From NCBI GenBank assembly GCA_041661385.1, contig JBAZUP010000001.1, forward strand, positions 145,692-209,691: a stretch of 64,000 nt of DNA. The letters are read 5' to 3'. This document shows, piece by piece, positions 3-60,767 of the stretch (position 1 is its first letter; each line of letters begins with the position of its first letter). This DNA comes from Patescibacteria group bacterium. GTDB lineage: Bacteria > Patescibacteriota > Patescibacteriia > Magasanikbacterales > GWA2-37-8. A model generated the notes under the pieces. That model was given only the letters and a program-made list of their open reading frames with translations. It was not told the DNA's origin and made no database searches. The position numbers were made by a program, and so were the translations under genes.

Positions 3-251
3 TACTTCGACGATGTCGAAGAAGGCCGGCGCAAGGTTCAGGAAATGTACGACAAAGGCAAGGAATTGAACAAGAAAGCGAAAGCATTGAACAAGGAGAA
101 GTTTCTCAGCGACATTCAGCTGAGTCAAGTGGAAAATCTCCTCGACAAGCTCGAGGAGAGGATCAACGCCGATCGTCAGGCGATCAAGCGGAGGCCTGCC
201 CACATCGGGGCGGCGAAGAACGGTGCCGGTCTCCGGCTGATTACCGCCTAG
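3..251 (+). CDS. C-terminal 82 codons of a GC-rich foreign-looking ORF, 5' truncated by window start; function unknown
   Basis: Open frame from window edge to TAG at 249-251. Codons are strongly C/G-ending (ttc gac aag ctc gag atc aac), unlike the A/T-ending usage of neighbouring genes. Local GC is far above the window mean. Confidence 0.4.
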   Translation, partial: YFDDVEEGRRKVQEMYDKGKELNKKAKALNKEKFLSDIQLSQVENLLDKLEERINADRQAIKRRPAHIGAAKNGAGLRLITA

Positions 252-278
252 CGCGGTTGAGGACTGAACAAAAAACGT

Positions 279-316
279 CCCCCGGTAGCAATCGCTACCG
301 GGGGACATCTATTTTT
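279..316. terminator. Bidirectional rho-independent terminator: 11 bp GC stem cccccggtagc/gctaccggggg with U-runs on both sides
   Basis: Perfect inverted repeat 279-289/294-304 followed by ctattttt. A-run upstream gives a U-run on the opposite strand. Sits between convergent genes. Confidence 0.6.
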
Positions 317-1280
317 ATTTGTTTCCTCCGTGAAATTTTTTATGAGTTTCACGGAGTTTTTTATTTGTGACGTGAGTATAAATCTGAGTTGTGACTATAT
401 TTTTATGGCCAAGCATTTCTTGTACCGATCTCATATCAGCGCCTTCATTTAGAAGATCAGTCGCGAAGCTGTGCCGGAGAGTATGGGGAGTAGCGTCGAC
501 TGGTAAACCGGCCATCACGGTATATTTACGAACAATGCGTTCAACCGACCGGGGAGTCAACCGGTGTTCGTCGTCGCTTCGATCGGTTTTGTAATTTATA
601 AAAAGTGGCGCGTACATATCTTTGGTGCGGATTTTAAGATATTTTCCAAGCCACCCCAGAGCGCGTTTTGAAAAATATACAGTTCGGGTCGATCCGCCCT
701 TGCCGCTAATACTAATTTCTAGTTCATCAATTTTATCGGATAAAATATTTTTTAAATCAAAAATTCGTGCATTTAATGAAGTAAGTTCTGAAACCCGCAT
801 GCCAGTCGAAAATAATATCTCAAGCATAGTGCGGTCACGCAGGCCGTCTTCTTCTGATGTATCCGGCATGTCCAATAATTTTTCAACCTGATTTAAAGTT
901 AAAAATTTAATCGATTTCTCTTTTTCGGTAAGTTTTGGAAGTTTTATTTTATCGGCCGAAATACATTCAATGTCACGCTCGGTAAAATATTTTACAAGAT
1001 TACGCAAAGCGATTAAATAGTAATTCTGAGTAGATTTTTTATTTAATTTTCCGTGATCGTCTTTTTTTCTTGATAAGTATAATCGATAGTTCCAAATATG
1101 ATCCGGGCTAAGTTCGTGCGGCTTGAGATTTTCAATTTTGTTGTCCTTTAGCCAAACGACAAACATTTTAAGAAAATTATGATAATTACGAGTAGAAACC
1201 TGAGATAAACCTTTCTCAACTTCACAATAATCTAAAAAAGACGATATATGATCAATAATTGGTACAGAAGATTTTGGCAT
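315..1280 (-). CDS. Tyrosine site-specific recombinase / phage-type integrase (XerC/D-like)
   Basis: C-terminal catalytic motif HTLRHSFATDLLNEGADMRSVQEMLGHKNIVTTQIYTHV (R..HxxR..Y). 321 aa. Confidence 0.85.
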   Translation of the reverse strand: MPKSSVPIIDHISSFLDYCEVEKGLSQVSTRNYHNFLKMFVVWLKDNKIENLKPHELSPDHIWNYRLYLSRKKDDHGKLNKKSTQNYYLIALRNLVKYFTERDIECISADKIKLPKLTEKEKSIKFLTLNQVEKLLDMPDTSEEDGLRDRTMLEILFSTGMRVSELTSLNARIFDLKNILSDKIDELEISISGKGGSTRTVYFSKRALGWLGKYLKIRTKDMYAPLFINYKTDRSDDEHRLTPRSVERIVRKYTVMAGLPVDATPHTLRHSFATDLLNEGADMRSVQEMLGHKNIVTTQIYTHVTNKKLRETHKKFHGGNK

Positions 1281-41645: not shown

Positions 41646-42233
41646 TTATAATTTCCCAACTAATTCTGTGGAAGGTGTGAGTGTTTTGTCGCCTGGTTTC
41701 CAGTTTACCGGACAGGCTTCTCCGCCATGCTCCCGAACAAATTTTGCTGCTTGAAGCTTGCGAAGCAGTTCCCGCGGATTTCTACCGATATTATTTGCAT
41801 GCACTTCATAAGCTTGAATAATCCCATCCGGATCAATGATAAAACTTCCTCGAAGCGATAGACCTTCTTGAGGAATATATATTCCAAGCGCCTGGCATAA
41901 AGCACCAGTTGGATCGGCGAGCATCGGAAAATTAATCTTACTAATTGAGGGTGAATGATCGTGCCAAGCCTTATGCACGAAAGCAGTATCGGTGCTGACA
42001 CTCATTACTTCTGCGCCTTCTTTTTGAAAATCCGGATATAGATCCGCGAGATCAGAAAGCTCGGTGGGACAAACAAAAGTAAAATCTGCTGGATAGAAAA
42101 ATAATACAACCCACTTTTTATGATAGTCATTAAGACTAATCTTTTTGATTTCCCCGCCAACAAAAGCCTCAAAAGTACTTCCTGGCACGCTTCCGCCAAT
42201 TAGCGGCTGCCGGTAATTTAATAAATTTTCCAT
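41646..42233 (-). CDS. Peroxiredoxin (AhpC/TSA family, typical 2-Cys)
   Basis: FTFVCPTE peroxidatic Cys motif and C-terminal resolving Cys (GEACPVNW). Start moved to MENLLNY. Confidence 0.9.
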   Translation of the reverse strand: MENLLNYRQPLIGGSVPGSTFEAFVGGEIKKISLNDYHKKWVVLFFYPADFTFVCPTELSDLADLYPDFQKEGAEVMSVSTDTAFVHKAWHDHSPSISKINFPMLADPTGALCQALGIYIPQEGLSLRGSFIIDPDGIIQAYEVHANNIGRNPRELLRKLQAAKFVREHGGEACPVNWKPGDKTLTPSTELVGKL

Positions 42234-42290
42234 ATTAGTGGAATTAATAATTATATTTTTATCGTAACAGACTGAATGCATTTGCGCAAC

Positions 42291-42326
42291 CCCGAAAATA
42301 TATAGGGCGCCTCCGAAGAGGCGCCC
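42291..42326 (-). terminator. Strong minus-strand terminator: 9 bp GC stem gggcgcctc/gaggcgccc with UUCG loop, then UAUAUAUUUU
   Basis: Perfect inverted repeat 42305-42313/42318-42326; the reverse-complement loop is UUCG; AT run follows on the minus strand. Confidence 0.6.
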
Positions 42327-42347
42327 TGGTGGTGCATGGGTTTGCCG

Positions 42348-42524
42348 CTAAGCGGCGTTGTTGTCCTCCTTGGAGAGGGGTGGTACGGGCTGGGACTTTT
42401 GGTCCTTCCCGCTGAAACGATCGACAGCTCCGCCGACGTCGTGTTCGAGAGTCGCCCCGTCGGGTGTCACCAGCTTGGGGTGATATCCGAAGCGCTGATT
42501 GCCCATCCTGCCTGCGTGAGACAT
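42348..42524 (-). CDS. 58-aa GC-rich foreign-looking ORF (MSHAGRMGNQRFGYHPKLVTPDGATLEHDVGGAVDRFSGKDQKSQPVPPLSKEDNNAA), function unknown
   Basis: RBS GAGGAAAGGG 10-14 nt upstream. G/C-ending codons. Terminated by the strong hairpin at 42291-42326. Could instead be a non-coding RNA. Confidence 0.3.
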   Translation of the reverse strand: MSHAGRMGNQRFGYHPKLVTPDGATLEHDVGGAVDRFSGKDQKSQPVPPLSKEDNNAA

Positions 42525-42684
42525 GTGTATCCGCCCTTTCCTCTACTATTAGGTCCATGCTGCTTTAGTAGAGCTTAAAAATGTTATCACAATAAGCTAA
42601 ATATTTCAAGATAAGCTATAAATATCACAACATTTATTATTGACAAAATGTCATAAAAAACATAGACTCTATATACAAATATAT

Positions 42685-42756
42685 TCCCAGGTAGCGCAGC
42701 GGTAGCGCAGTTGGCTGTTAACCAATTGGTCGTCGGTTCGAATCCGACCCTGGGAG
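42685..42756 (+). tRNA. tRNA-Asn (GTT)
   Basis: Manual cloverleaf: acceptor tcccagg/cctggga, anticodon stem gttgg/ccaat, loop ctGTTaa, T-arm gtcgg-ttcgaat-ccgac. Confidence 0.85.
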
Positions 42757-42766
42757 CAAATTAAAA

Positions 42767-42788
42767 AGACGGATCTAGTCCGTCTTTT
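42767..42788 (+). terminator. Hairpin agacgga-tctag-tccgtct + T-run after tRNA-Asn
   Basis: 7 bp inverted repeat followed by ttttat. Confidence 0.45.
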
Positions 42789-42837
42789 ATATATTTTATG
42801 ATGAAGTTTTAAAGACTTCAAAATTAAAACATTTTAA

Positions 42838-42999
42838 CTATATTATTTTTTTACCCTGAAGCAATCTTACAATCACTACGATAATAGCTATTATGAGTAG
42901 AACATGGATATAGCCCCCGAGCGTATAGGAAGTTACAAGTCCTAACAGCCAAAGAACTAATAATATAACCGCTATGGTCCACAACATATGTTTGAACAT
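42838..42999 (-). CDS. lmo0937-family small membrane protein (53 aa)
   Basis: MFKHMLWTIAVILLVLWLLGLVTSYTLGGYIHVLLIIAIIVVIVRLLQGKKII matches the conserved small two-TM family. Below the ORF-track cutoff. Confidence 0.55.
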   Translation of the reverse strand: MFKHMLWTIAVILLVLWLLGLVTSYTLGGYIHVLLIIAIIVVIVRLLQGKKII

Positions 43000-43200
43000 T
43001 AGTTTAATAAATAAAATAATATTCGCTGCTTGCTTTCAAGCAAGCTTCATAGTAATCTTAAAAAGTACACCCATTTCTGTCAGGTCGCGCTGGCTATTCT
43101 AATTACATACCCAATAAAGTACTAGGTCAATAGTAAATATAATTAAAGGTGCATAAATGGTGAATGAATTTTTAAAATAACCGCATTTTAGCGAAAAAAT

Positions 43201-43695
43201 ATGCCAATCAAAGTAAAACAGGGATTTACATTAATAGAACTTCTCGTGGTTATCGGTATTATCGGAATCCTAACGACGATTGTCACCGTAGCAACGAATG
43301 GTGCGAGAATAAAGACGCGCGACACCAAAAGAAAAGCCGAGTTATCACAAATTGGCAGATTTTTTTCCGCTTCGAGTTGTTTTATTCCAAATGCCGGCCC
43401 TGGTGATTATGATTTAGCAGATTTAGTTTCGGAAATCAAAAGTAAAAATCCACAACTAGCCACAATGTTTAAACTTCCGGTTGACCCAAAAAGCGGAACC
43501 GAAAGCAAAACAAATTATCATTATAAAATTTTAAATTCTGACCGCTGTATTCTATATGCAAATCTCGAAAATAAAGATGAAAAAATAACAATCCCCGATC
43601 TGAACTTTCCAGATGTCGGCAAAGGAACTGGAATTCTAAGGTCAACTACCGAAGGTGTAAACGGAACAAATATATATTTTCAATACAGCAAATAA
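43201..43695 (+). CDS. Type IV pilin / pseudopilin-like protein with prepilin N-terminal methylation motif
   Basis: MPIKVKQGFTLIELLVVIGIIGIL class III signal peptide (G/FTLIE). Confidence 0.8.
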   Translation: MPIKVKQGFTLIELLVVIGIIGILTTIVTVATNGARIKTRDTKRKAELSQIGRFFSASSCFIPNAGPGDYDLADLVSEIKSKNPQLATMFKLPVDPKSGTESKTNYHYKILNSDRCILYANLENKDEKITIPDLNFPDVGKGTGILRSTTEGVNGTNIYFQYSK

Positions 43696-43705
43696 TTACG
43701 AAATT

Positions 43706-43733
43706 AAAAAACCCGTTTTATAACGGGTTTTTT
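43706..43733. terminator. Bidirectional terminator aacccgtt-ttat-aacgggtt with flanking A/T runs
   Basis: 8 bp inverted repeat between convergent pilin (+) and glycosyltransferase (-) genes. Confidence 0.55.
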
Positions 43734-43763
43734 AATATAAATAACTGTAATGGACTTTAATTA

Positions 43764-45086
43764 TTACAACAATTCATCATCTGCCGAAGGATCAATTACC
43801 CCTTTAAATAAAACGTCTTCGATGTTTTTAACGCCAAATTGCCGACCGTCCAAAAAACCCGCCACAGCTGCTTCGGCGAGCCAGCCAGACTTAACCCAAT
43901 CAAACAACCATTCACTGGTATATTTTGGATTATTTTGAGATATGCCAGCACCAATTGTTTTTAACCAAGTACGATTGTAATCTTCCTGCGAACCAACCGA
44001 AGGTGCCATAATTATCGGCAAACCTAAACCGGAATAGAAAACCAACTCACTTGGTTTGGTCCACAAGACATCAGTAGTTCTAAGGGCATTATTAAAAAGC
44101 TTAAAATAATCTTCTTTGTGAGGCGCAAAAATTATATTTAAATTTCTTCCGAAATTTTTAATTAGCCGTGAATCAATAATAGCTTTTTTAAAATAGCTAT
44201 AAACATCATTTCGGCTGCCCGCAACCAAATTAAAACAAACTTCTTCTTTGGTAATTTTTTCTCGAAGACTCATTAAAATATCATGAGCAATATTTCTTTG
44301 GGCACCGGCTCCCCCGACACCAAATGTAACCGTAAGCGGACGGCGACTTGGCGAATTAGGCTGAATTCCCGGCAAGAATCTTTTAATTGTATCACCATAT
44401 TTGGACCGATAACGATGTTCCGGATCTAAATTGATTACCCGATCAGAAAGATCAGATTTTAAATCAGCGAAATTCAAACCAATATTTTCGCTCGGCAATG
44501 GAAAACCCGTCAAGAAAATATTTTGATCTTTTACTCCGTACAATTTGAGACGTTCTACTACCCGGCGACATGGGGCCAAATACTTAATGCGGCTTTTAGC
44601 AGGATTAAGCGCAACCCAAGCCCGGCTAATATCACTGTCGCAAATAACAACGTAAATATCATTTTTAAATTTGTGCTCTTCCGCCATAAAAGCCACCGTA
44701 AAAAAGGTGGTAATGAGCGGAATGTCTTCGGTATTTAATTGTTTTATTAAATCTTTTCCAAAACCGGTGCGAATCAGCGAGTATTCTTGTCTAACCTGAA
44801 TGGAAGGCCATGACAAATCACGGCGAGGATAAAATTGATCAATTGATTGAAGCTTGTCGAAAGCATTCCAAATATATTTCCCAATAATTGGAATGCCGGT
44901 GGTGCGAGAAAAAAATTCATAAGTTCGACGTCCACTATTCCAGATACGATGATCGCGACGCGGAATTCCGGCATAATTATTCGCAATCAACACTTTGCCA
45001 TTTGGAGATAATTCGCGTAAAGGATAGGCAGCCCGTTGATGGCCATACCCCATATCTACAGCAACGACCCAAGCTTTGTGATCCAT
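43764..45086 (-). CDS. GT-B fold glycosyltransferase (MGDG-synthase/MurG-like N-terminal G-x-G-H loop)
   Basis: VAVDMGYGHQRAAYPL resembles GGGHxxAAxAL of GT28/MGDG synthases; 440 aa; weak. Confidence 0.4.
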   Translation of the reverse strand: MDHKAWVVAVDMGYGHQRAAYPLRELSPNGKVLIANNYAGIPRRDHRIWNSGRRTYEFFSRTTGIPIIGKYIWNAFDKLQSIDQFYPRRDLSWPSIQVRQEYSLIRTGFGKDLIKQLNTEDIPLITTFFTVAFMAEEHKFKNDIYVVICDSDISRAWVALNPAKSRIKYLAPCRRVVERLKLYGVKDQNIFLTGFPLPSENIGLNFADLKSDLSDRVINLDPEHRYRSKYGDTIKRFLPGIQPNSPSRRPLTVTFGVGGAGAQRNIAHDILMSLREKITKEEVCFNLVAGSRNDVYSYFKKAIIDSRLIKNFGRNLNIIFAPHKEDYFKLFNNALRTTDVLWTKPSELVFYSGLGLPIIMAPSVGSQEDYNRTWLKTIGAGISQNNPKYTSEWLFDWVKSGWLAEAAVAGFLDGRQFGVKNIEDVLFKGVIDPSADDELL

Positions 45087-52900: not shown

Positions 52901-52973
52901 GGGTTGGTAGCTCAGCTGGTAGAGCAGCTCCCTTTTAAGGAGAAGGTCATGGGTTCGAATCCCATCCGACCCA
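52901..52973 (+). tRNA. tRNA-Lys (TTT)
   Basis: gggttgg-ta-gctc-agctggta-gagc-a-gctcc-ctTTTaa-ggaga-aggtc-atggg-ttcgaat-cccat-ccgaccc-a. Confidence 0.85.
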
Positions 52974-52981
52974 CAAATATA

Positions 52982-53005
52982 AAAGCCGCATTTATGCGGT
53001 TTTTA
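52982..53005. terminator. Hairpin agccgca-ttta-tgcggtt + T-run after tRNA-Lys, symmetric
   Basis: 7 bp stem (one G-U) flanked by AAAA and TTTTT. Confidence 0.5.
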
Positions 53006-53009
53006 TATT

Positions 53010-53190
53010 TGTGTGGGAGGAGCGACCAAACTGCTTTGGTCGCGTATGGGGTGAGAACGCCGGAGCCATGTCCGAGGAGCTTTGCTGGCGACGAGGACGG
53101 CGAGGCGGTGGCTAGCCCGAATGAGCGGAAGCGAATGAGAGGCGAAGCAGAATCCCGGATAAAGCGCGCGAGAATCCCCCGACCTACTTC
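53010..53190. other. GC-rich (~60%) purine-rich non-coding islet with 9-bp perfect hairpin gcgaccaaa-ctgc-tttggtcgc and tandem gcGAATGAGngg units
   Basis: No ORF over 25 codons on either strand once the read-through of tRNA-Lys is discounted. Composition contrasts sharply with the flanks. Confidence 0.3.
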
Positions 53191-54203
53191 AAATACTTAT
53201 CAAAAAACGCGACTGATCTTTTCATTGCGAGGTCAAAGTTCGGAGCTGATAAATTATGATTGCCGTTTTTATAGGTATATAATTCTATCTTCTTTTTTGC
53301 CAATTTCATCTTATTATAAAATCCGCGCGAGAAATCAATCGGCACATCCAGATCTTTTGTACCGGCGTGAAGCTGAATCGGTGTAGTTATGTCTTTTATA
53401 TAATAGGTTGGATCGACAAGTTTCCAATAACTAAGATTTGTTTTTGGTGTGCCATATTTCGCGATAATCTTTTTGCGATAATCTTGCTTCACTGAGATGT
53501 CCTTTGGCGAAGGTCTGTATACAGCTTTCGGATTATTATCCGGCCAATTGAACATAATATCGCGGTATGATGCTACTACCCCACCCCAGATGACTGCTGC
53601 TTTAATGCTTTTACCATCTACTAATAAATTTTTTAAAGTTATATTTCCACCCATTGAATGAGCCCAGTAACCGATTTTTTTTGCATTAACATCGGGATAT
53701 TTTTTTAGACTTGAAAGCGCGTTCAAAACATCGATAGCGTACGCAGGTGAATAATACACACCCTCTGGAGCACCCTCAGACTCCGCGTGCCCGCGATAAT
53801 CTGGTTTAAAAACTACATAACCTTTTTTTGCAAAATAATCTACATAGGCCGCGTAGCGCTTTTCCGTGGTATATACTTCGGGTTGAACATAGCCGTGAAG
53901 AAAAAGAATCGCCGGCCAGCCACCAATAGGCTTTTCACCCTTTGGCACAGTTAGCAAACCATTTTCCTTTAATCCATCAGACTCATAGGAAACAATATAG
54001 CGATAATAAGTACTAGAGGCATCTAACTCACTTACAACGACAAAATCACTGCCCGGGTAAGCGCGCGCTTTAAGCGAAGATATTTTAAGCTGGTTTGCTA
54101 TTTGCGAAACAGAAAGTTCTTTTACAGTTGAAGTTGTTTCTGCCAAAACCGAACCCGCTACAAATATAAAAGCAAATACAATGATTGCCGTTATTTTTTT
54201 CAT
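53184..54203 (-). CDS. Secreted alpha/beta hydrolase (S9 / dienelactone-hydrolase-like)
   Basis: Signal peptide, nucleophile elbow GYWAHSMGG, C-terminal Asp/His. Confidence 0.7.
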   Translation of the reverse strand: MKKITAIIVFAFIFVAGSVLAETTSTVKELSVSQIANQLKISSLKARAYPGSDFVVVSELDASSTYYRYIVSYESDGLKENGLLTVPKGEKPIGGWPAILFLHGYVQPEVYTTEKRYAAYVDYFAKKGYVVFKPDYRGHAESEGAPEGVYYSPAYAIDVLNALSSLKKYPDVNAKKIGYWAHSMGGNITLKNLLVDGKSIKAAVIWGGVVASYRDIMFNWPDNNPKAVYRPSPKDISVKQDYRKKIIAKYGTPKTNLSYWKLVDPTYYIKDITTPIQLHAGTKDLDVPIDFSRGFYNKMKLAKKKIELYTYKNGNHNLSAPNFDLAMKRSVAFFDKYLK

Positions 54204-60198: not shown

Positions 60199-60227
60199 TT
60201 GACAATATCGTCATATTATGCTAATAT
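60199..60227 (+). promoter_or_regulatory. Near-consensus sigma70 promoter TTGACA-17-TAATAT in the dnaG divergent intergenic region
   Basis: TTGACA 60199-60204, 17-nt spacer, TAATAT 60222-60227, ~85-nt leader to ATG 60315. Confidence 0.5.
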
Positions 60228-60314: not shown

Positions 60315-60767
60315 ATGACCCGTAATACTCGCAGTTCATACCAGAAATTGCTCTTGGTACTCAACGAAGTCTTCGTTGGCTACTGGTTCATCACCTACCC
60401 AGTCATCATCGTCACCGCATCCAACTTCGCCGTTGAGCAAGATTTTTCCGAAAGACTCATCATCTTCGCCTTGCTCCTTCCGGTGTTGAAGATGGTGCTC
60501 TTGCTCGTCGAATTGAACGATGAGATGAAGGCTGCCCGTGAAAACAGGCAGTACGACGAGGAGAAGGCCAATTCCATCGGCCCCATCGAGAACGAACTCG
60601 ACATCCCGACGAATATTCGTCGAATGCACCCCGACCCAAACTGGGGGGAAAAGTTCGTTGCTGCCATGAAGAATCCGCAGCCTGATGACATTCCGCCCGA
60701 AGACGGCAAGCTCCTCGACTTCCCCGCCTACAAGAGGCACAGCAAGAAGCCCGACCTGCCCAACTAA
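60315..60767 (+). CDS. GC-rich foreign-looking 150-aa protein: two N-terminal TM helices plus acidic, Pro-rich C-terminal tail
   Basis: Strong C-ending codon bias (ttc atc ctc gac aac aag ccc), ~52% GC against a ~35% background. Upstream RBS aaggga. Confidence 0.5.
   Translation: MTRNTRSSYQKLLLVLNEVFVGYWFITYPVIIVTASNFAVEQDFSERLIIFALLLPVLKMVLLLVELNDEMKAARENRQYDEEKANSIGPIENELDIPTNIRRMHPDPNWGEKFVAAMKNPQPDDIPPEDGKLLDFPAYKRHSKKPDLPN

What the first reader, a model, noticed from the sequence alone, without database searches (positions are those of the whole stretch)
42291..42573. Second GC-rich islet: small foreign-codon ORF (58 aa) or structured RNA, framed by a palindrome and a UUCG-loop terminator, 125 bp from tRNA-Asn
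About 280 bp at ~58% GC sit between the peroxiredoxin promoter and tRNA-Asn. On the minus strand there is a plausible RBS (GAGGAAAGGG), an ATG at 42524, and a 58-codon frame with G/C-ending codons. An extremely stable terminator follows 20 nt later (9-bp GC stem, UUCG tetraloop, UAUAUAUUUU). An 8-bp perfect palindrome CTCTACTA/TAGTAGAG at 42541-42573 overlaps the RBS and could be a regulator or RNase site. Overlapping ORFs appear in three frames, as expected for imported GC-rich DNA. Proximity to a tRNA gene fits tRNA-targeted integration of a tiny fragment. The 58-aa sequence has no motif I recognise.
Basis: partly seen in the sequence, partly recalled or inferred. Interest (0 to 1): 0.65.

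Follow-up and report, generated by a model that had tools for sequence, protein, structure and literature searches.

The report
Conserved small gene, GC-rich folded mRNA
The GC-rich islet is a real, previously unclassified 58-codon gene of a tiny groundwater-type (Patescibacteria) bacterium; related genomes keep it at the same spot, and its silent codon positions stay G/C-rich, apparently so that its messenger RNA folds tightly, so it is not a fresh import of foreign DNA.

Summary
Window 42291-42573 is 58.7% GC against 38% for the window. On the minus strand it holds a promoter-like site, an 8-bp 5' hairpin, an SD, a 58-codon ORF (42524-42348) and a 10-bp GC/UUCG terminator. It is not a known RNA or protein family (Rfam, Pfam, NCBIfam, PHROGs and PDB all negative).

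An exhaustive HMMER search and walking upstream from close peroxiredoxin relatives gave five orthologous cassettes. All lie between a divergent tRNA-Asn and prx, and all have the same parts. The ORF is coding:
- it is the only frame open in all six loci;
- indels are multiples of 3;
- the invariant H-D-V-G motif is kept through synonymous changes;
- dN/dS is about 0.4.

GC3 is 0.65-0.84 in every ortholog, against 0.28-0.41 for adjacent prx, although silent sites in prx are saturated. GC-richness is therefore maintained by selection, not left over from import. The mRNA is unusually stable (z -3.2 to -4.9). The 5' hairpin and terminator covary, and a 5'-loop GCAUGG / 3'-UTR CCAUGC pairing is conserved (G-C, A-U, G.U).

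The cassette is missing from some close relatives, which fits repeated loss. No integrase, att repeats or mobile-element homologs were found. The protein's function is unknown. Verdict: a new small-protein family with an armoured mRNA, of moderate interest.

The parts
42581..42609 (-). Promoter-like site of the small gene: -35 TTGAAA (42609-42604), 17-nt spacer, TG-extended -10 TAACAT (42586-42581).
   Evidence: A -35/-10 pair whose -10 ends 5-7 nt before the first base of the 5' hairpin is found in 4 of 5 loci scanned. The start of transcription is inferred, not shown.
42541..42573 (-). 5' hairpin, probably at the very 5' end of the transcript: 8-bp stem CUCUACUA/UAGUAGAG with a 17-nt loop. 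The 3' arm abuts the SD.
   Evidence: I13. A hairpin at the same place in all six loci has different stem sequences; 5 of 6 counted pairs change on both sides (hand-made register of five loci).
42555..42560 (-). Conserved loop motif GCAUGG, complementary to the 3'-UTR motif CCAUGC.
   Evidence: The motif is [G/A]CAUGG in all six loci. RNAalifold chose this long-range helix on an unguided alignment. Pair probability is 0.94, 0.95 and 0.47 in three loci.
42530..42543 (-). Shine-Dalgarno region GAGGAAAGGGCGGA. The orthologs have GGGCGGAGG 6-10 nt upstream of the first ATG.
42348..42524 (-). Small protein gene, 58 codons plus TAG: MSHAGRMGNQRFGYHPKLVTPDGATLEHDVGGAVDRFSGKDQKSQPVPPLSKEDNNAA. H28-D29-V30-G31 are invariant in the family. 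GC3 is 0.73.
   Evidence: The first ATG is the start, because MSHAGR is kept in L101 through three synonymous changes. The JGI call of 52 aa (P0001) starts at the second ATG.
42344..42356 (-). Small hairpin GCCGC-UUA-GCGGC enclosing the stop codon.
   Evidence: L101 has GCCGU-UUA-ACGGC (a compensatory change) and L102 has GCCGC-GUA-GCGGC. It is a minor element that I read from the sequences and did not test statistically.
42334..42339 (-). 3'-UTR motif CCAUGC, 8 nt after the stop codon and 6 nt before the terminator stem; proposed partner of the 5' loop motif.
   Evidence: The motif is CCAUG[C/U] in all six loci. The variable pair is G-C in four loci, A-U in L104 and G.U in L110.
42294..42327 (-). 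Intrinsic-terminator-like hairpin: 10-bp stem, 8 G-C pairs, UUCG loop, tail UAUAUAUUUU.
   Evidence: It is conserved in all six loci with covariation: 4 of 9 pairs and 6 of 10 pairs change on both sides. The U-tracts are interrupted in every locus.
42261..42289 (-). Context: prx's own promoter-like element, TTGCGC, 17 nt, TACGAT, immediately after the terminator.
   Evidence: Read. It is also present in the cassette-less loci L103 and L105, where GGGGGTTGC follows the tRNA-Asn promoter region directly.
41646..42233 (-). Context: peroxiredoxin (AhpC/TSA, 1-Cys C-terminal domain), 195 aa from the conserved MENLL start.
42685..42757 (+). Context: tRNA-Asn (GTT), divergent from the small gene, with its own promoter-like site TTGACA-17-TAGACT at 42640-42668.
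   Evidence: The same divergent tRNA-Asn is seen in L101, L102, L104 (partial), L109 (partial) and L110.

Best explanation
The islet is an autonomous, single-gene transcription unit on the minus strand. It encodes a small hydrophilic protein of 58 aa that belongs to a previously unclassified family with an invariant H-D-V-G(G) motif.

**Layout.** A sigma-70-type promoter would start an RNA of about 280 nt at the foot of an 8-bp 5' hairpin. An SD and the 58-codon ORF follow, then a short 3' UTR and a very stable GC-rich terminator hairpin.

**Origin.** The gene is native to a small Patescibacteria clade, where it sits between tRNA-Asn and prx. It is dispensable: it has been lost in several close relatives.

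**Why it is GC-rich.** The composition is not a relic of import. Silent codon positions are held at G/C by selection, most plausibly so that the mRNA folds into a compact, nuclease-resistant structure. In this model the 5' hairpin and the 3' terminator cap the two ends, and a 6-bp contact between the 5' hairpin loop (GCAUGG) and the 3' UTR (CCAUGC) ties them together. A ribosome terminating at the stop codon would cover that 3' motif, so translation and end-to-end pairing could be coupled, as in the B. subtilis hbs mRNA.

**Shown by computation:** the coding status, the conservation and synteny, the maintained GC3, the excess fold stability, and the covariation of the two hairpins.

**Inferred:** the transcript ends, the role of the 5'-3' contact, mRNA longevity, and any link of the protein to oxidative stress. 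The biochemical function of the protein remains unknown.
For: **Homologs and synteny**
- Exhaustive HMMER finds P0002 (E 2.9e-6, about 50% identity). It lies directly upstream of prx and divergent from tRNA-Asn on L101.
- Four more cassettes at the same position are in L102, L104, L109 and L110. A six-member profile recovers all of them and nothing else.

**Coding status**
- The sense frame is the only one open in all loci.
- Indels are 3 and 9 nt.
- In the conserved N-terminal part, 15 codons are identical, 11 synonymous and 9 non-synonymous, with differences by codon position of 8/4/15.
- NG86 (Nei-Gojobori) dN/dS is 0.37-0.44 within subfamilies.
- LEHDVG codons vary only synonymously.
- The codon-aligned antisense frame has pN/pS of about 1.

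**Maintained GC at silent sites**
- GC3 is 0.65-0.84 against 0.28-0.41 for prx.
- GC at fourfold-degenerate sites is 0.63-0.77 against 0.23-0.41.
- G-ending K/E/Q codons are 84% against 30%, and C-ending NNY codons 73% against 32%.
- prx pS is 0.75-0.90, which is saturated, while the small ORF's pS is 0.58-0.66.

**RNA structure**
- Fold z-scores are -3.2 to -4.9 against dinucleotide shuffles in all five loci tested.
- The native mRNA is more stable than synonymous-codon permutations in 4 of 5 loci.
- Hairpin and terminator covariation: 10 of 21 pairs change on both sides, 99% of cells are paired, and 0 of 500 shuffles reach this.
- RNAalifold picks the 5'-3' helix and the terminator without guidance.
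- The variable pair of the long-range helix is G-C, A-U or G.U.

**Native and dispensable**
- On the prx tree, cassette-bearing and cassette-less loci are interleaved.
- The empty sites retain the prx promoter element.
- There are no att repeats and no hits to mobile elements.
Against: - There is no expression or peptide evidence of any kind.
- Only six sequences from one narrow clade are available, so covariation statistics are weak. The register used was chosen by hand.
- Five of the six pairs of the 5'-3' helix never vary. CAUG is self-complementary, so its conservation could reflect something other than pairing. In L104 and L109 nested folding prefers the 5' hairpin, so the contact would have to be a pseudoknot, which I could not model.
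- For the window's own sequence, the synonymous-permutation test is not significant (fraction 0.27).
- AlphaFold gives no confident fold (pLDDT 63.5, pTM 0.19), and the C-terminal half evolves fast. The protein could be only marginally functional.
- The terminator U-tracts are interrupted in all loci, so read-through into prx cannot be excluded.
- The prx tree rests on one 195-aa protein, so the loss-versus-gain inference is tentative.
Confidence: 0.75

Rival explanations
1. Dual-function RNA. The roughly 280-nt transcript is primarily a structured regulatory RNA, acting in trans or on the neighbouring prx, that also happens to encode a small peptide, as do SR1/SR1P, RNAIII/hld and SgrS/SgrT. 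GC-rich silent sites would be kept for the RNA's own function rather than for mRNA longevity.
For: - Silent sites are constrained beyond what the protein needs: pS is lower than in prx, GC at fourfold sites is 0.63-0.77, and the structure is more stable than codon-permuted versions in 4 of 5 loci.
- The loop and 3'-UTR motifs are invariant.
- The RNA is strongly folded in all loci.
- The protein is largely disordered, and its tail evolves fast.
Against: - No target is known.
- The conserved single-stranded motif is only 6 nt long and has an intramolecular partner.
- The strongest conservation in the unit, the HDVGG codons, is at the protein level with synonymous variation.
- There is no Rfam family.
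- This rival overlaps the best explanation and does not exclude it.
Confidence: 0.13
2. One reading: a tiny fragment of foreign, GC-rich DNA recently acquired by integration next to tRNA-Asn. The ORF would be a foreign gene or gene fragment that has not yet adjusted to the host's composition.
For: - Codon usage is completely unlike the host's.
- The islet is present in some close relatives and absent from others.
- It lies next to a tRNA gene.
- It is an orphan in a word-indexed search of 5.8 billion proteins.
Against: - Six diverged genomes carry it at the same site with the same flanking promoter, hairpin and terminator parts.
- prx silent sites are saturated between these genomes, yet GC3 stays at 0.65-0.84 in each.
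- Both purine-ending and pyrimidine-ending codon classes are GC-enriched.
- The islet lies 5' of the tRNA, with no att-like direct repeats and no integrase.
- There are no relatives in phages, plasmids, viral contigs or PHROGs.
- No GC-rich donor homolog appears among 1.84 billion representative proteins.
- The distribution on the prx tree fits ancestral presence with losses.
Confidence: 0.05
3. A cis-regulatory leader of prx: a leader peptide plus terminator that acts as an attenuator or riboswitch-like element, controlling read-through into the peroxiredoxin operon.
For: - The cassette has the same orientation as prx and lies immediately upstream of it in all six loci.
- The ORF ends 20 nt before a terminator.
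- The U-tracts are imperfect, so partial read-through is possible.
Against: - A conserved promoter-like element (TTGCnn, 17 nt, TAnnnT) lies between the terminator and prx. It is the only upstream element in the cassette-less relatives L103 and L105, so prx is expressed without the cassette.
- I found no alternative antiterminator pairing with the very stable 10-bp GC stem in the predicted folds.
- The peptide is conserved as a protein (HDVGG, dN/dS about 0.4). It is not a run of regulatory codons.
- The Rfam leader and riboswitch models do not match.
Confidence: 0.05
4. A type I toxin-antitoxin-like module: a small toxic peptide whose mRNA is kept translationally inert by a 5'-3' long-distance interaction, as in hok/sok and aapA1/IsoA1.
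For: - It is a small ORF.
- The mRNA is highly structured, with a conserved 5'-3' contact.
- It is present in some close relatives and absent from others.
Against: - The peptide is hydrophilic and charged, with no hydrophobic helix.
- There is no promoter-like site on the antisense strand within the islet.
- The 5'-3' contact does not cover the SD.
Confidence: 0.02

Closest known systems
The 'sORF' category of GC-rich intergenic regions in the Breaker-lab GC-IGR pipeline (PMC11109978, PMC6429828)
   Same: It is a long, GC-rich intergenic region in an AT-rich genome. [quoted passage not shown]
   Different: That category is a bin for by-products of ncRNA searches, not a family. Here the GC-richness lies mostly at silent codon positions and is itself conserved across diverged orthologs, and the mRNA also carries covarying structural elements.
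B. subtilis hbs mRNA (5'/3'-UTR interaction that modulates RNase Y and RNase J1 attack; PMC5737220)
   Same: [quoted passage not shown]
   Different: The hbs interaction is 14 bp and was shown experimentally. Here it is a predicted 6-bp contact between a hairpin loop and the 3' UTR. The proteins are unrelated. The RNase content of this organism was not examined.
S. aureus icaR mRNA (3'-UTR pairing with the 5'-UTR SD region; PMC3868564)
   Same: A conserved 3'-UTR motif is complementary to a 5'-UTR element of the same mRNA.
   Different: In icaR the 3' UTR pairs with the SD, which blocks translation and creates an RNase III site. Here the partner is a hairpin loop upstream of the SD, and the SD itself is not covered.
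Dual-function RNAs that encode small peptides (SR1/SR1P, RNAIII/hld, SgrS/SgrT; from my own knowledge)
   Same: It is a structured RNA of about 200-500 nt with its own promoter and terminator that also encodes a small protein, with constraint at both the RNA and the protein level.
   Different: No RNA target or regulatory activity is known here, and there is no sequence or structural homology to any of them (Rfam negative).

Membership tests
Any Rfam RNA family (including RNase P, SRP, 6S, tmRNA, riboswitches and leaders) | A covariance-model match at or near the family's gathering score. | tested here: not met
   for the window, and for five orthologous loci: only tRNAs. The best matches in the islet score 13-14 bits against gathering scores of 45-100.
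Any curated protein family (Pfam, NCBIfam, PHROGs) or solved structure | A profile-HMM match. | tested here: not met
   no match for the window protein, nor for the five family members scanned. NCBIfam was run on the window ORFs only. The best PHROGs E-value is 0.24. PADLOC was not run.
Protein-coding small ORF (sORF criteria of PMC11109978) | [quoted passage not shown] | tested here: met
   the sense frame is open in all six loci, every other frame is interrupted in at least one, and the stop codon is at an equivalent position.
Protein-coding small ORF (sORF criteria of PMC11109978) | A substitution pattern typical of coding sequence: excess change at third positions, indels in multiples of 3, dN/dS below 1. 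| tested here: met
   differences by codon position are 8/4/15 in the conserved part, indels are 3 and 9 nt, and dN/dS is 0.37-0.44; pN/pS for the codon-aligned antisense frame is about 1.
Protein-coding small ORF | Evidence of translation (Ribo-seq or a detected peptide). | not testable with these tools
   No expression data are available for this uncultured organism.
Intrinsic (Rho-independent) terminator | A G+C-rich stem-loop followed directly by a U-tract. | tested here: met
   10-bp stem, 8 G-C pairs, and a tail with at least 5 T in 8 bases. The stem covaries. In the orthologs the U-tract is interrupted, so efficiency is uncertain.
mRNAs with 5'/3'-UTR pairing (hbs or icaR type) | [quoted passage not shown] | tested here: inconclusive
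   The 6-bp GCAUGG/CCAUGC complementarity is present in all six loci. One compensatory pair (A-U in L104) and one wobble pair (G.U in L110) occur, and RNAalifold selects the helix. Five of the six pairs are invariant, and there are only six sequences.
mRNAs with 5'/3'-UTR pairing (hbs or icaR type) | The pairing alters RNase cleavage or translation. | not testable with these tools
   This requires half-life or reporter measurements with compensatory mutants.
tRNA-targeted integrative element or genomic islet | An integrase or recombinase gene, insertion at the 3' end of the tRNA, and flanking direct repeats (att) derived from the tRNA. | tested here: not met
   The islet is 5' of tRNA-Asn. There are no tRNA-derived direct repeats. 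No recombinase lies among the genes flanking the islet. The same cassette is at the same site in diverged genomes.
Type I toxin-antitoxin | A small hydrophobic (membrane) toxin and an antisense or overlapping antitoxin RNA. | tested here: not met
   The peptide is hydrophilic and predicted to be mostly coil. There is no promoter-like site on the antisense strand within the islet.
Leader-peptide transcription attenuator | Mutually exclusive terminator and antiterminator structures, with no promoter between the terminator and the regulated gene. | tested here: not met
   A conserved promoter-like element lies between the terminator and prx and serves alone in the cassette-less relatives. No antiterminator alternative appears in the predicted folds. 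Sub-threshold Rfam leader hits elsewhere in the window do not touch this islet.

The most novel reading that the evidence does not exclude
This cassette may be one example of an unrecognised class in CPR/Patescibacteria genomes: small genes whose silent sites are held G/C-rich by selection, so that the transcript forms an armoured, end-to-end-paired RNA. Such an RNA could be a very long-lived stored mRNA for stress or dormancy, or a true dual-function riboregulator. Two other small intergenic ORFs in the same window have the same anomaly: 45-251 (+) and 60315-60767 (+), both with GC3 0.75 against a genome level of about 0.32. The first of these also ends in a 13-bp GC-rich terminator.
Probability: 0.2. 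Interest if true: 0.65.

Novelty: new member of a known kind. Interest (0 to 1): 0.4.

Why it matters
**For annotation.** A GC-rich islet in an AT-rich genome is usually read as either foreign DNA or a structured non-coding RNA. Here it is neither. It is a native small protein gene whose silent sites appear to be selected for RNA structure. Gene callers handled it badly: it was started at the wrong ATG in the window, called on the antisense strand in L104, and missed in L102 and L109.

**For biology.** It defines a new small-protein family, marked by the HDVGG motif, in organisms with minimal genomes, where every retained gene is informative. It also offers a clean natural case of selection on synonymous sites for mRNA folding, with a testable 5'-3' end contact.

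**Limits.** The family is narrow (six loci in one clade), it is dispensable, and the protein's function is unknown.

Tried and rejected
**Known RNA.** Rfam was negative at gathering and E-value thresholds on the islet, the whole window and the orthologous loci. The resemblance of GAGGAAAGGGCGG to the RNase P P4 strand is coincidental, as no RNase P model matched.

**Known protein family.** Pfam, NCBIfam, PHROGs and a PDB profile search all found nothing.

**Word-indexed protein searches** with the ORF and with P0002 returned only the queries themselves. Only the exhaustive HMMER search found the first homolog. Its other two hits, P0003 and P0004, are internally repetitive proteins whose scores are summed over 6-7 repeats. 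I treated them as spurious.

**Relatives that did not help**
- prx relatives among the species-representative genomes reach only 70% identity at best, and none has the islet.
- Metagenome relatives found through the DUF6938 neighbour show a rearranged locus without the islet.

**Similarity among the GC-rich islets of the window:** none.

**Structure prediction**
- The two-sequence model was of low confidence (pLDDT 63.5), so I ran no fold search.

**Other frames as the real gene**
- The 99-aa minus-strand ORF has the wrong periodicity (GC3 0.45).
- The 80-aa plus-strand ORF is the codon-aligned antisense frame, with pN/pS of about 1 and interruptions in two loci.
- The wobble-sharing antisense frame has a low pN/pS but contains stops in four of five loci.

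**Mobile origin:** no hits in viral contigs, phages or plasmids, and no att repeats.

**Translational selection as the cause of high GC3:** rejected, because G-ending purine codons are as enriched as C-ending pyrimidine codons.

**Literature:** searches for CPR small proteins or GC-rich ncRNAs near peroxiredoxin found nothing specific.
Full report
**1. The observation**

The islet is real. Positions 42291-42573 are 58.7% GC. Local windows reach 62-64%, against 38.2% for the whole window.

On the minus strand the features read off in this order:

| Feature | Coordinates |
|---|---|
| Promoter-like site: TTGAAA, 17 nt, TG-extended TAACAT | 42609-42581 |
| 8-bp inverted repeat CTCTACTA/TAGTAGAG, 17-nt loop | 42573-42541 |
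| GAGGAAAGGGCGGA (SD region) | 42543-42530 |
| ATG | 42524 |
| 58 codons, ending in TAG | stop at 42350-42348 |
| 10-bp G+C stem, UUCG loop, tail UAUAUAUUUU | 42327-42294 |

tRNA-Asn lies divergently at 42685-42757, which is 111 nt from the hairpin. An AhpC/TSA peroxiredoxin follows on the same strand.

**2. It is not a known RNA or protein**

Rfam gives only tRNAs. This holds at gathering score and at E <= 1-10, on the islet, on the whole window and on the orthologous loci. Pfam, NCBIfam, PHROGs and a PDB profile search give nothing for the 58-aa product or its relatives.

**3. The first clue: coding periodicity**

The islet core has GC by codon position of 0.66/0.44/0.71, in phase with the 58-aa frame (chi2 p about 0.007). 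This is the pattern of coding sequence from a GC-rich genome and is not expected of a structured RNA. Host genes have GC3 of about 0.30-0.33. None of the 40 ORFs of at least 200 aa in the window exceeds 0.39.

**4. Homologs**

Word-indexed searches found only the query itself. That hit was P0001, a 52-aa JGI call on a 778,751-bp contig. The window's prx is listed by NCBI as coming from a 'Patescibacteria group bacterium' MAG.

The exhaustive HMMER search of 1.84 billion representative proteins found one true relative, P0002 (E 2.9e-6, about 50% identity). It also returned two internally repetitive proteins that I regard as spurious.

P0002's contig, L101, has the same architecture as the window: a divergent tRNA-Asn, an AT-rich spacer, a 5' hairpin, an SD, a GC-rich small ORF, a GC hairpin, a promoter-like TTGC..-17-TACGAT, then prx.

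I then walked upstream from the closest prx relatives. This gave four more cassettes and several empty sites.

| Locus | Cassette |
|---|---|
| L102, L104, L109, L110 | present |
| L103, L105 (tRNA-Asn to prx spacer only 116 and 111 bp) | absent |
| L106-108, L111, L112 (tRNA-Pro upstream instead) | absent |
| L081 (DUF6938, prx and tRNA-Asn collinear) | absent |

There is no paralog in the window.

**5. It is a protein-coding gene**

- The sense frame is the only one open in all loci.
- The two indels between the window and L101 are 3 and 9 nt.
- MSHAGR at the N-terminus is kept in L101 through three synonymous changes. The first ATG (42524) is therefore the start, and the JGI call is six codons short.
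- In the conserved N-terminal 36 columns, 15 codons are identical, 11 differ synonymously and 9 differ non-synonymously. Differences by codon position are 8/4/15.
- Nei-Gojobori dN/dS is 0.37-0.44 within the two subfamilies.
- The invariant H-D-V-G motif and its neighbours are encoded by varying synonymous codons: CTC/CTG/ATC, GAA/GAG/AAG, CAC/CAT, GAC/GAT.
- The 80-aa plus-strand ORF is the codon-aligned antisense frame. It has pN/pS of about 1 and is interrupted in two loci. The 99-aa ORF has the wrong periodicity.

The family has two subtypes:
- ...RFGYHPKLxxPxGxxLEHDVGG..., in the window, L101 and L102;
- ...NKIESSxRxGxxVxxNxxRxGI(E/K)HDVGGA...L(K/R)LV..., in L104, L109 and L110.

Their tails evolve fast. 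AlphaFold gives a low-confidence, mostly coil model.

**6. The GC-richness is maintained, not inherited from a donor**

In all six loci the small ORF is far more GC-rich at silent sites than the adjacent prx.

| Measure | Small ORF | prx |
|---|---|---|
| GC3 | 0.65-0.84 | 0.28-0.41 |
| GC at fourfold-degenerate sites | 0.63-0.77 | 0.23-0.41 |
| G-ending Lys/Glu/Gln codons | 84% | 30% |
| C-ending NNY codons | 73% | 32% |
| pS between loci | 0.58-0.66 | 0.75-0.90 |

Both the purine-ending and the pyrimidine-ending codon classes are enriched, which argues against simple translational selection.

Silent sites in prx are saturated between these genomes. Neutral third positions in the small ORF should therefore long since have drifted to the host's AT-rich equilibrium. 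They have not, and the small ORF's pS is lower than that of prx. This points to selection on the nucleotide sequence itself.

**7. RNA-level features**

- All five transcripts tested fold much more stably than dinucleotide shuffles (z -3.2 to -4.9).
- Four of five are also more stable than versions with synonymous codons permuted (fraction at or below native 0.027-0.06). The window's own value, 0.27, is not significant.
- The 5' hairpin is present in every locus with different stem sequences, and the terminator stem covaries. In a hand-made register, 10 of 21 pairs change on both sides, 99% of cells are paired and 0 of 500 shuffles reach this. The caveats are the hand-chosen register and the small number of sequences (five).
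- The hairpin loop always carries [G/A]CAUGG, and the 3' UTR always carries CCAUG[C/U] 5-10 nt after the stop codon. The single variable pair is G-C in four loci, A-U in L104 and G.U in L110.
- RNAalifold, run on an unguided alignment, picks this long-range helix and the terminator as consensus.
- Single-sequence folding gives the long-range helix a probability of 0.94, 0.95 and 0.47 in three loci. In the other two the contact would have to be a loop-3'UTR pseudoknot, which the tool cannot model.
- The -10 element ends 5-7 nt before the hairpin in four of five loci. The hairpin is therefore probably at the very 5' end of the RNA.
- A ribosome at the stop codon would cover the 3' motif (inference).

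**8. Native or imported?**

On a prx neighbour-joining tree the cassette-bearing loci are interleaved with cassette-less ones. L109 branches deep, L104 is sister to the cassette-less L103, and the window, L101 and L102 group together. This fits an ancestral cassette lost several times. The tree rests on a single gene, so the inference is tentative.

The empty sites keep the prx promoter element directly next to the tRNA-Asn promoter region. There are no tRNA-derived direct repeats, no recombinase nearby and no relatives in viral contigs, phages or plasmids.

**9. Mechanism, with confidence**

Most likely (about 0.75), this is an autonomous small gene whose mRNA is 'armoured'. A 5'-terminal hairpin and a very stable terminator hairpin cap the ends, a short 5'-loop/3'-UTR contact joins them, and G/C-rich silent sites add internal structure. 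The result would be a compact, nuclease-resistant message for a small, largely disordered HDVGG protein.

The closest experimentally studied analogue of this architecture is the B. subtilis hbs mRNA (PMC5737220). The icaR mRNA (PMC3868564) is a looser one. In the scheme of the GC-rich-intergenic-region pipeline, the element falls in the 'sORF' class (PMC11109978).

The position next to prx, with cupin and FKBP genes downstream, hints at a stress role. All six loci are orthologous, however, so this association is not independent evidence.

Rivals:
- a dual-function RNA (0.13, not exclusive of the best explanation);
- a fresh foreign import (0.05);
- a cis-acting leader of prx (0.05);
- a type I toxin (0.02).

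**10. Verdict**

The 'small ORF' reading is right. The 'foreign import or tRNA-targeted integration' reading is not supported. 'Structured RNA' applies only in the sense of a structured mRNA.

This is a new small-protein family with an unusual compositional signature that is apparently maintained by selection. It is of moderate interest, and the interest would rise if the same holds for the window's other two high-GC3 small ORFs.

Noticed in passing
window 45-251 (+), terminator-like hairpin 277-306: A second small intergenic ORF (68 aa) has the same anomaly: GC1/2/3 0.56/0.32/0.75 and periodicity p about 0.001. It is followed by a 13-bp GC-rich terminator-like hairpin. There is no significant Pfam match. 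The overlapping sub-threshold Rfam His_leader hit at 270-392 (-), 41.9 bits against a gathering score of 49, probably reflects that hairpin.
   Followed up: partly
window 60315-60767 (+): A third high-GC3 gene, 150 aa with a hydrophobic N-terminal part, has GC1/2/3 0.53/0.31/0.75 and periodicity p about 2e-9. It has a strong promoter-like site TTGACA-17-TG-TAATAT at 60199-60227, no Pfam match and no canonical terminator. Together with the target, this suggests a class of GC3-rich small genes in this genome. Conservation in relatives was not tested.
   Followed up: partly
window 52970-53190 (+), just 3' of tRNA-Lys (52901-52974): A long, AT-rich, near-perfect hairpin (52970-53016) is followed by about 170 nt of GC-rich sequence with no codon periodicity (p about 0.9). 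The RNA fold z-score is -4.9, and there is no Rfam hit. It could be an undescribed structured RNA or the 3' UTR of the convergent 339-aa gene (53184-54203, -).
   Followed up: partly
window 42233-45086 compared with L081 3925-5993: The locus has been rearranged relative to the nearest DUF6938-bearing relative. In L081, DUF6938, prx and tRNA-Asn are contiguous on one strand with 55 bp before prx. In the window, a pilin-like gene, a DUF5670 gene and an inverted tRNA-Asn lie between DUF6938 and the cassette plus prx.
   Followed up: partly
window 42506 / 42524; L104 165-347 (-); L102 and L109 upstream of prx: Gene callers handled this family badly. In the window the gene was called from the second ATG (52 aa, P0001). 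In L104 the antisense ORF was called instead. In L102 and L109 nothing was called. This explains why protein databases hold almost no members.
   Followed up: yes
window 42233 vs 42281 (prx start): The mechanical ORF for prx starts at ATG 42281 (211 aa). All orthologs start at the equivalent of 42233 (MEN/MDN..., 195 aa), and the promoter-like TTGCGC-17-TACGAT lies at 42289-42261, inside the longer ORF.
   Followed up: yes
window 42690-42710 (inside tRNA-Asn): The exact direct repeat GGTAGCGCAG occurs twice, 11 nt apart, within the D-arm region of tRNA-Asn (D5). The tRNA still scores 72 bits with a normal cloverleaf. This is probably of no consequence.
   Followed up: no
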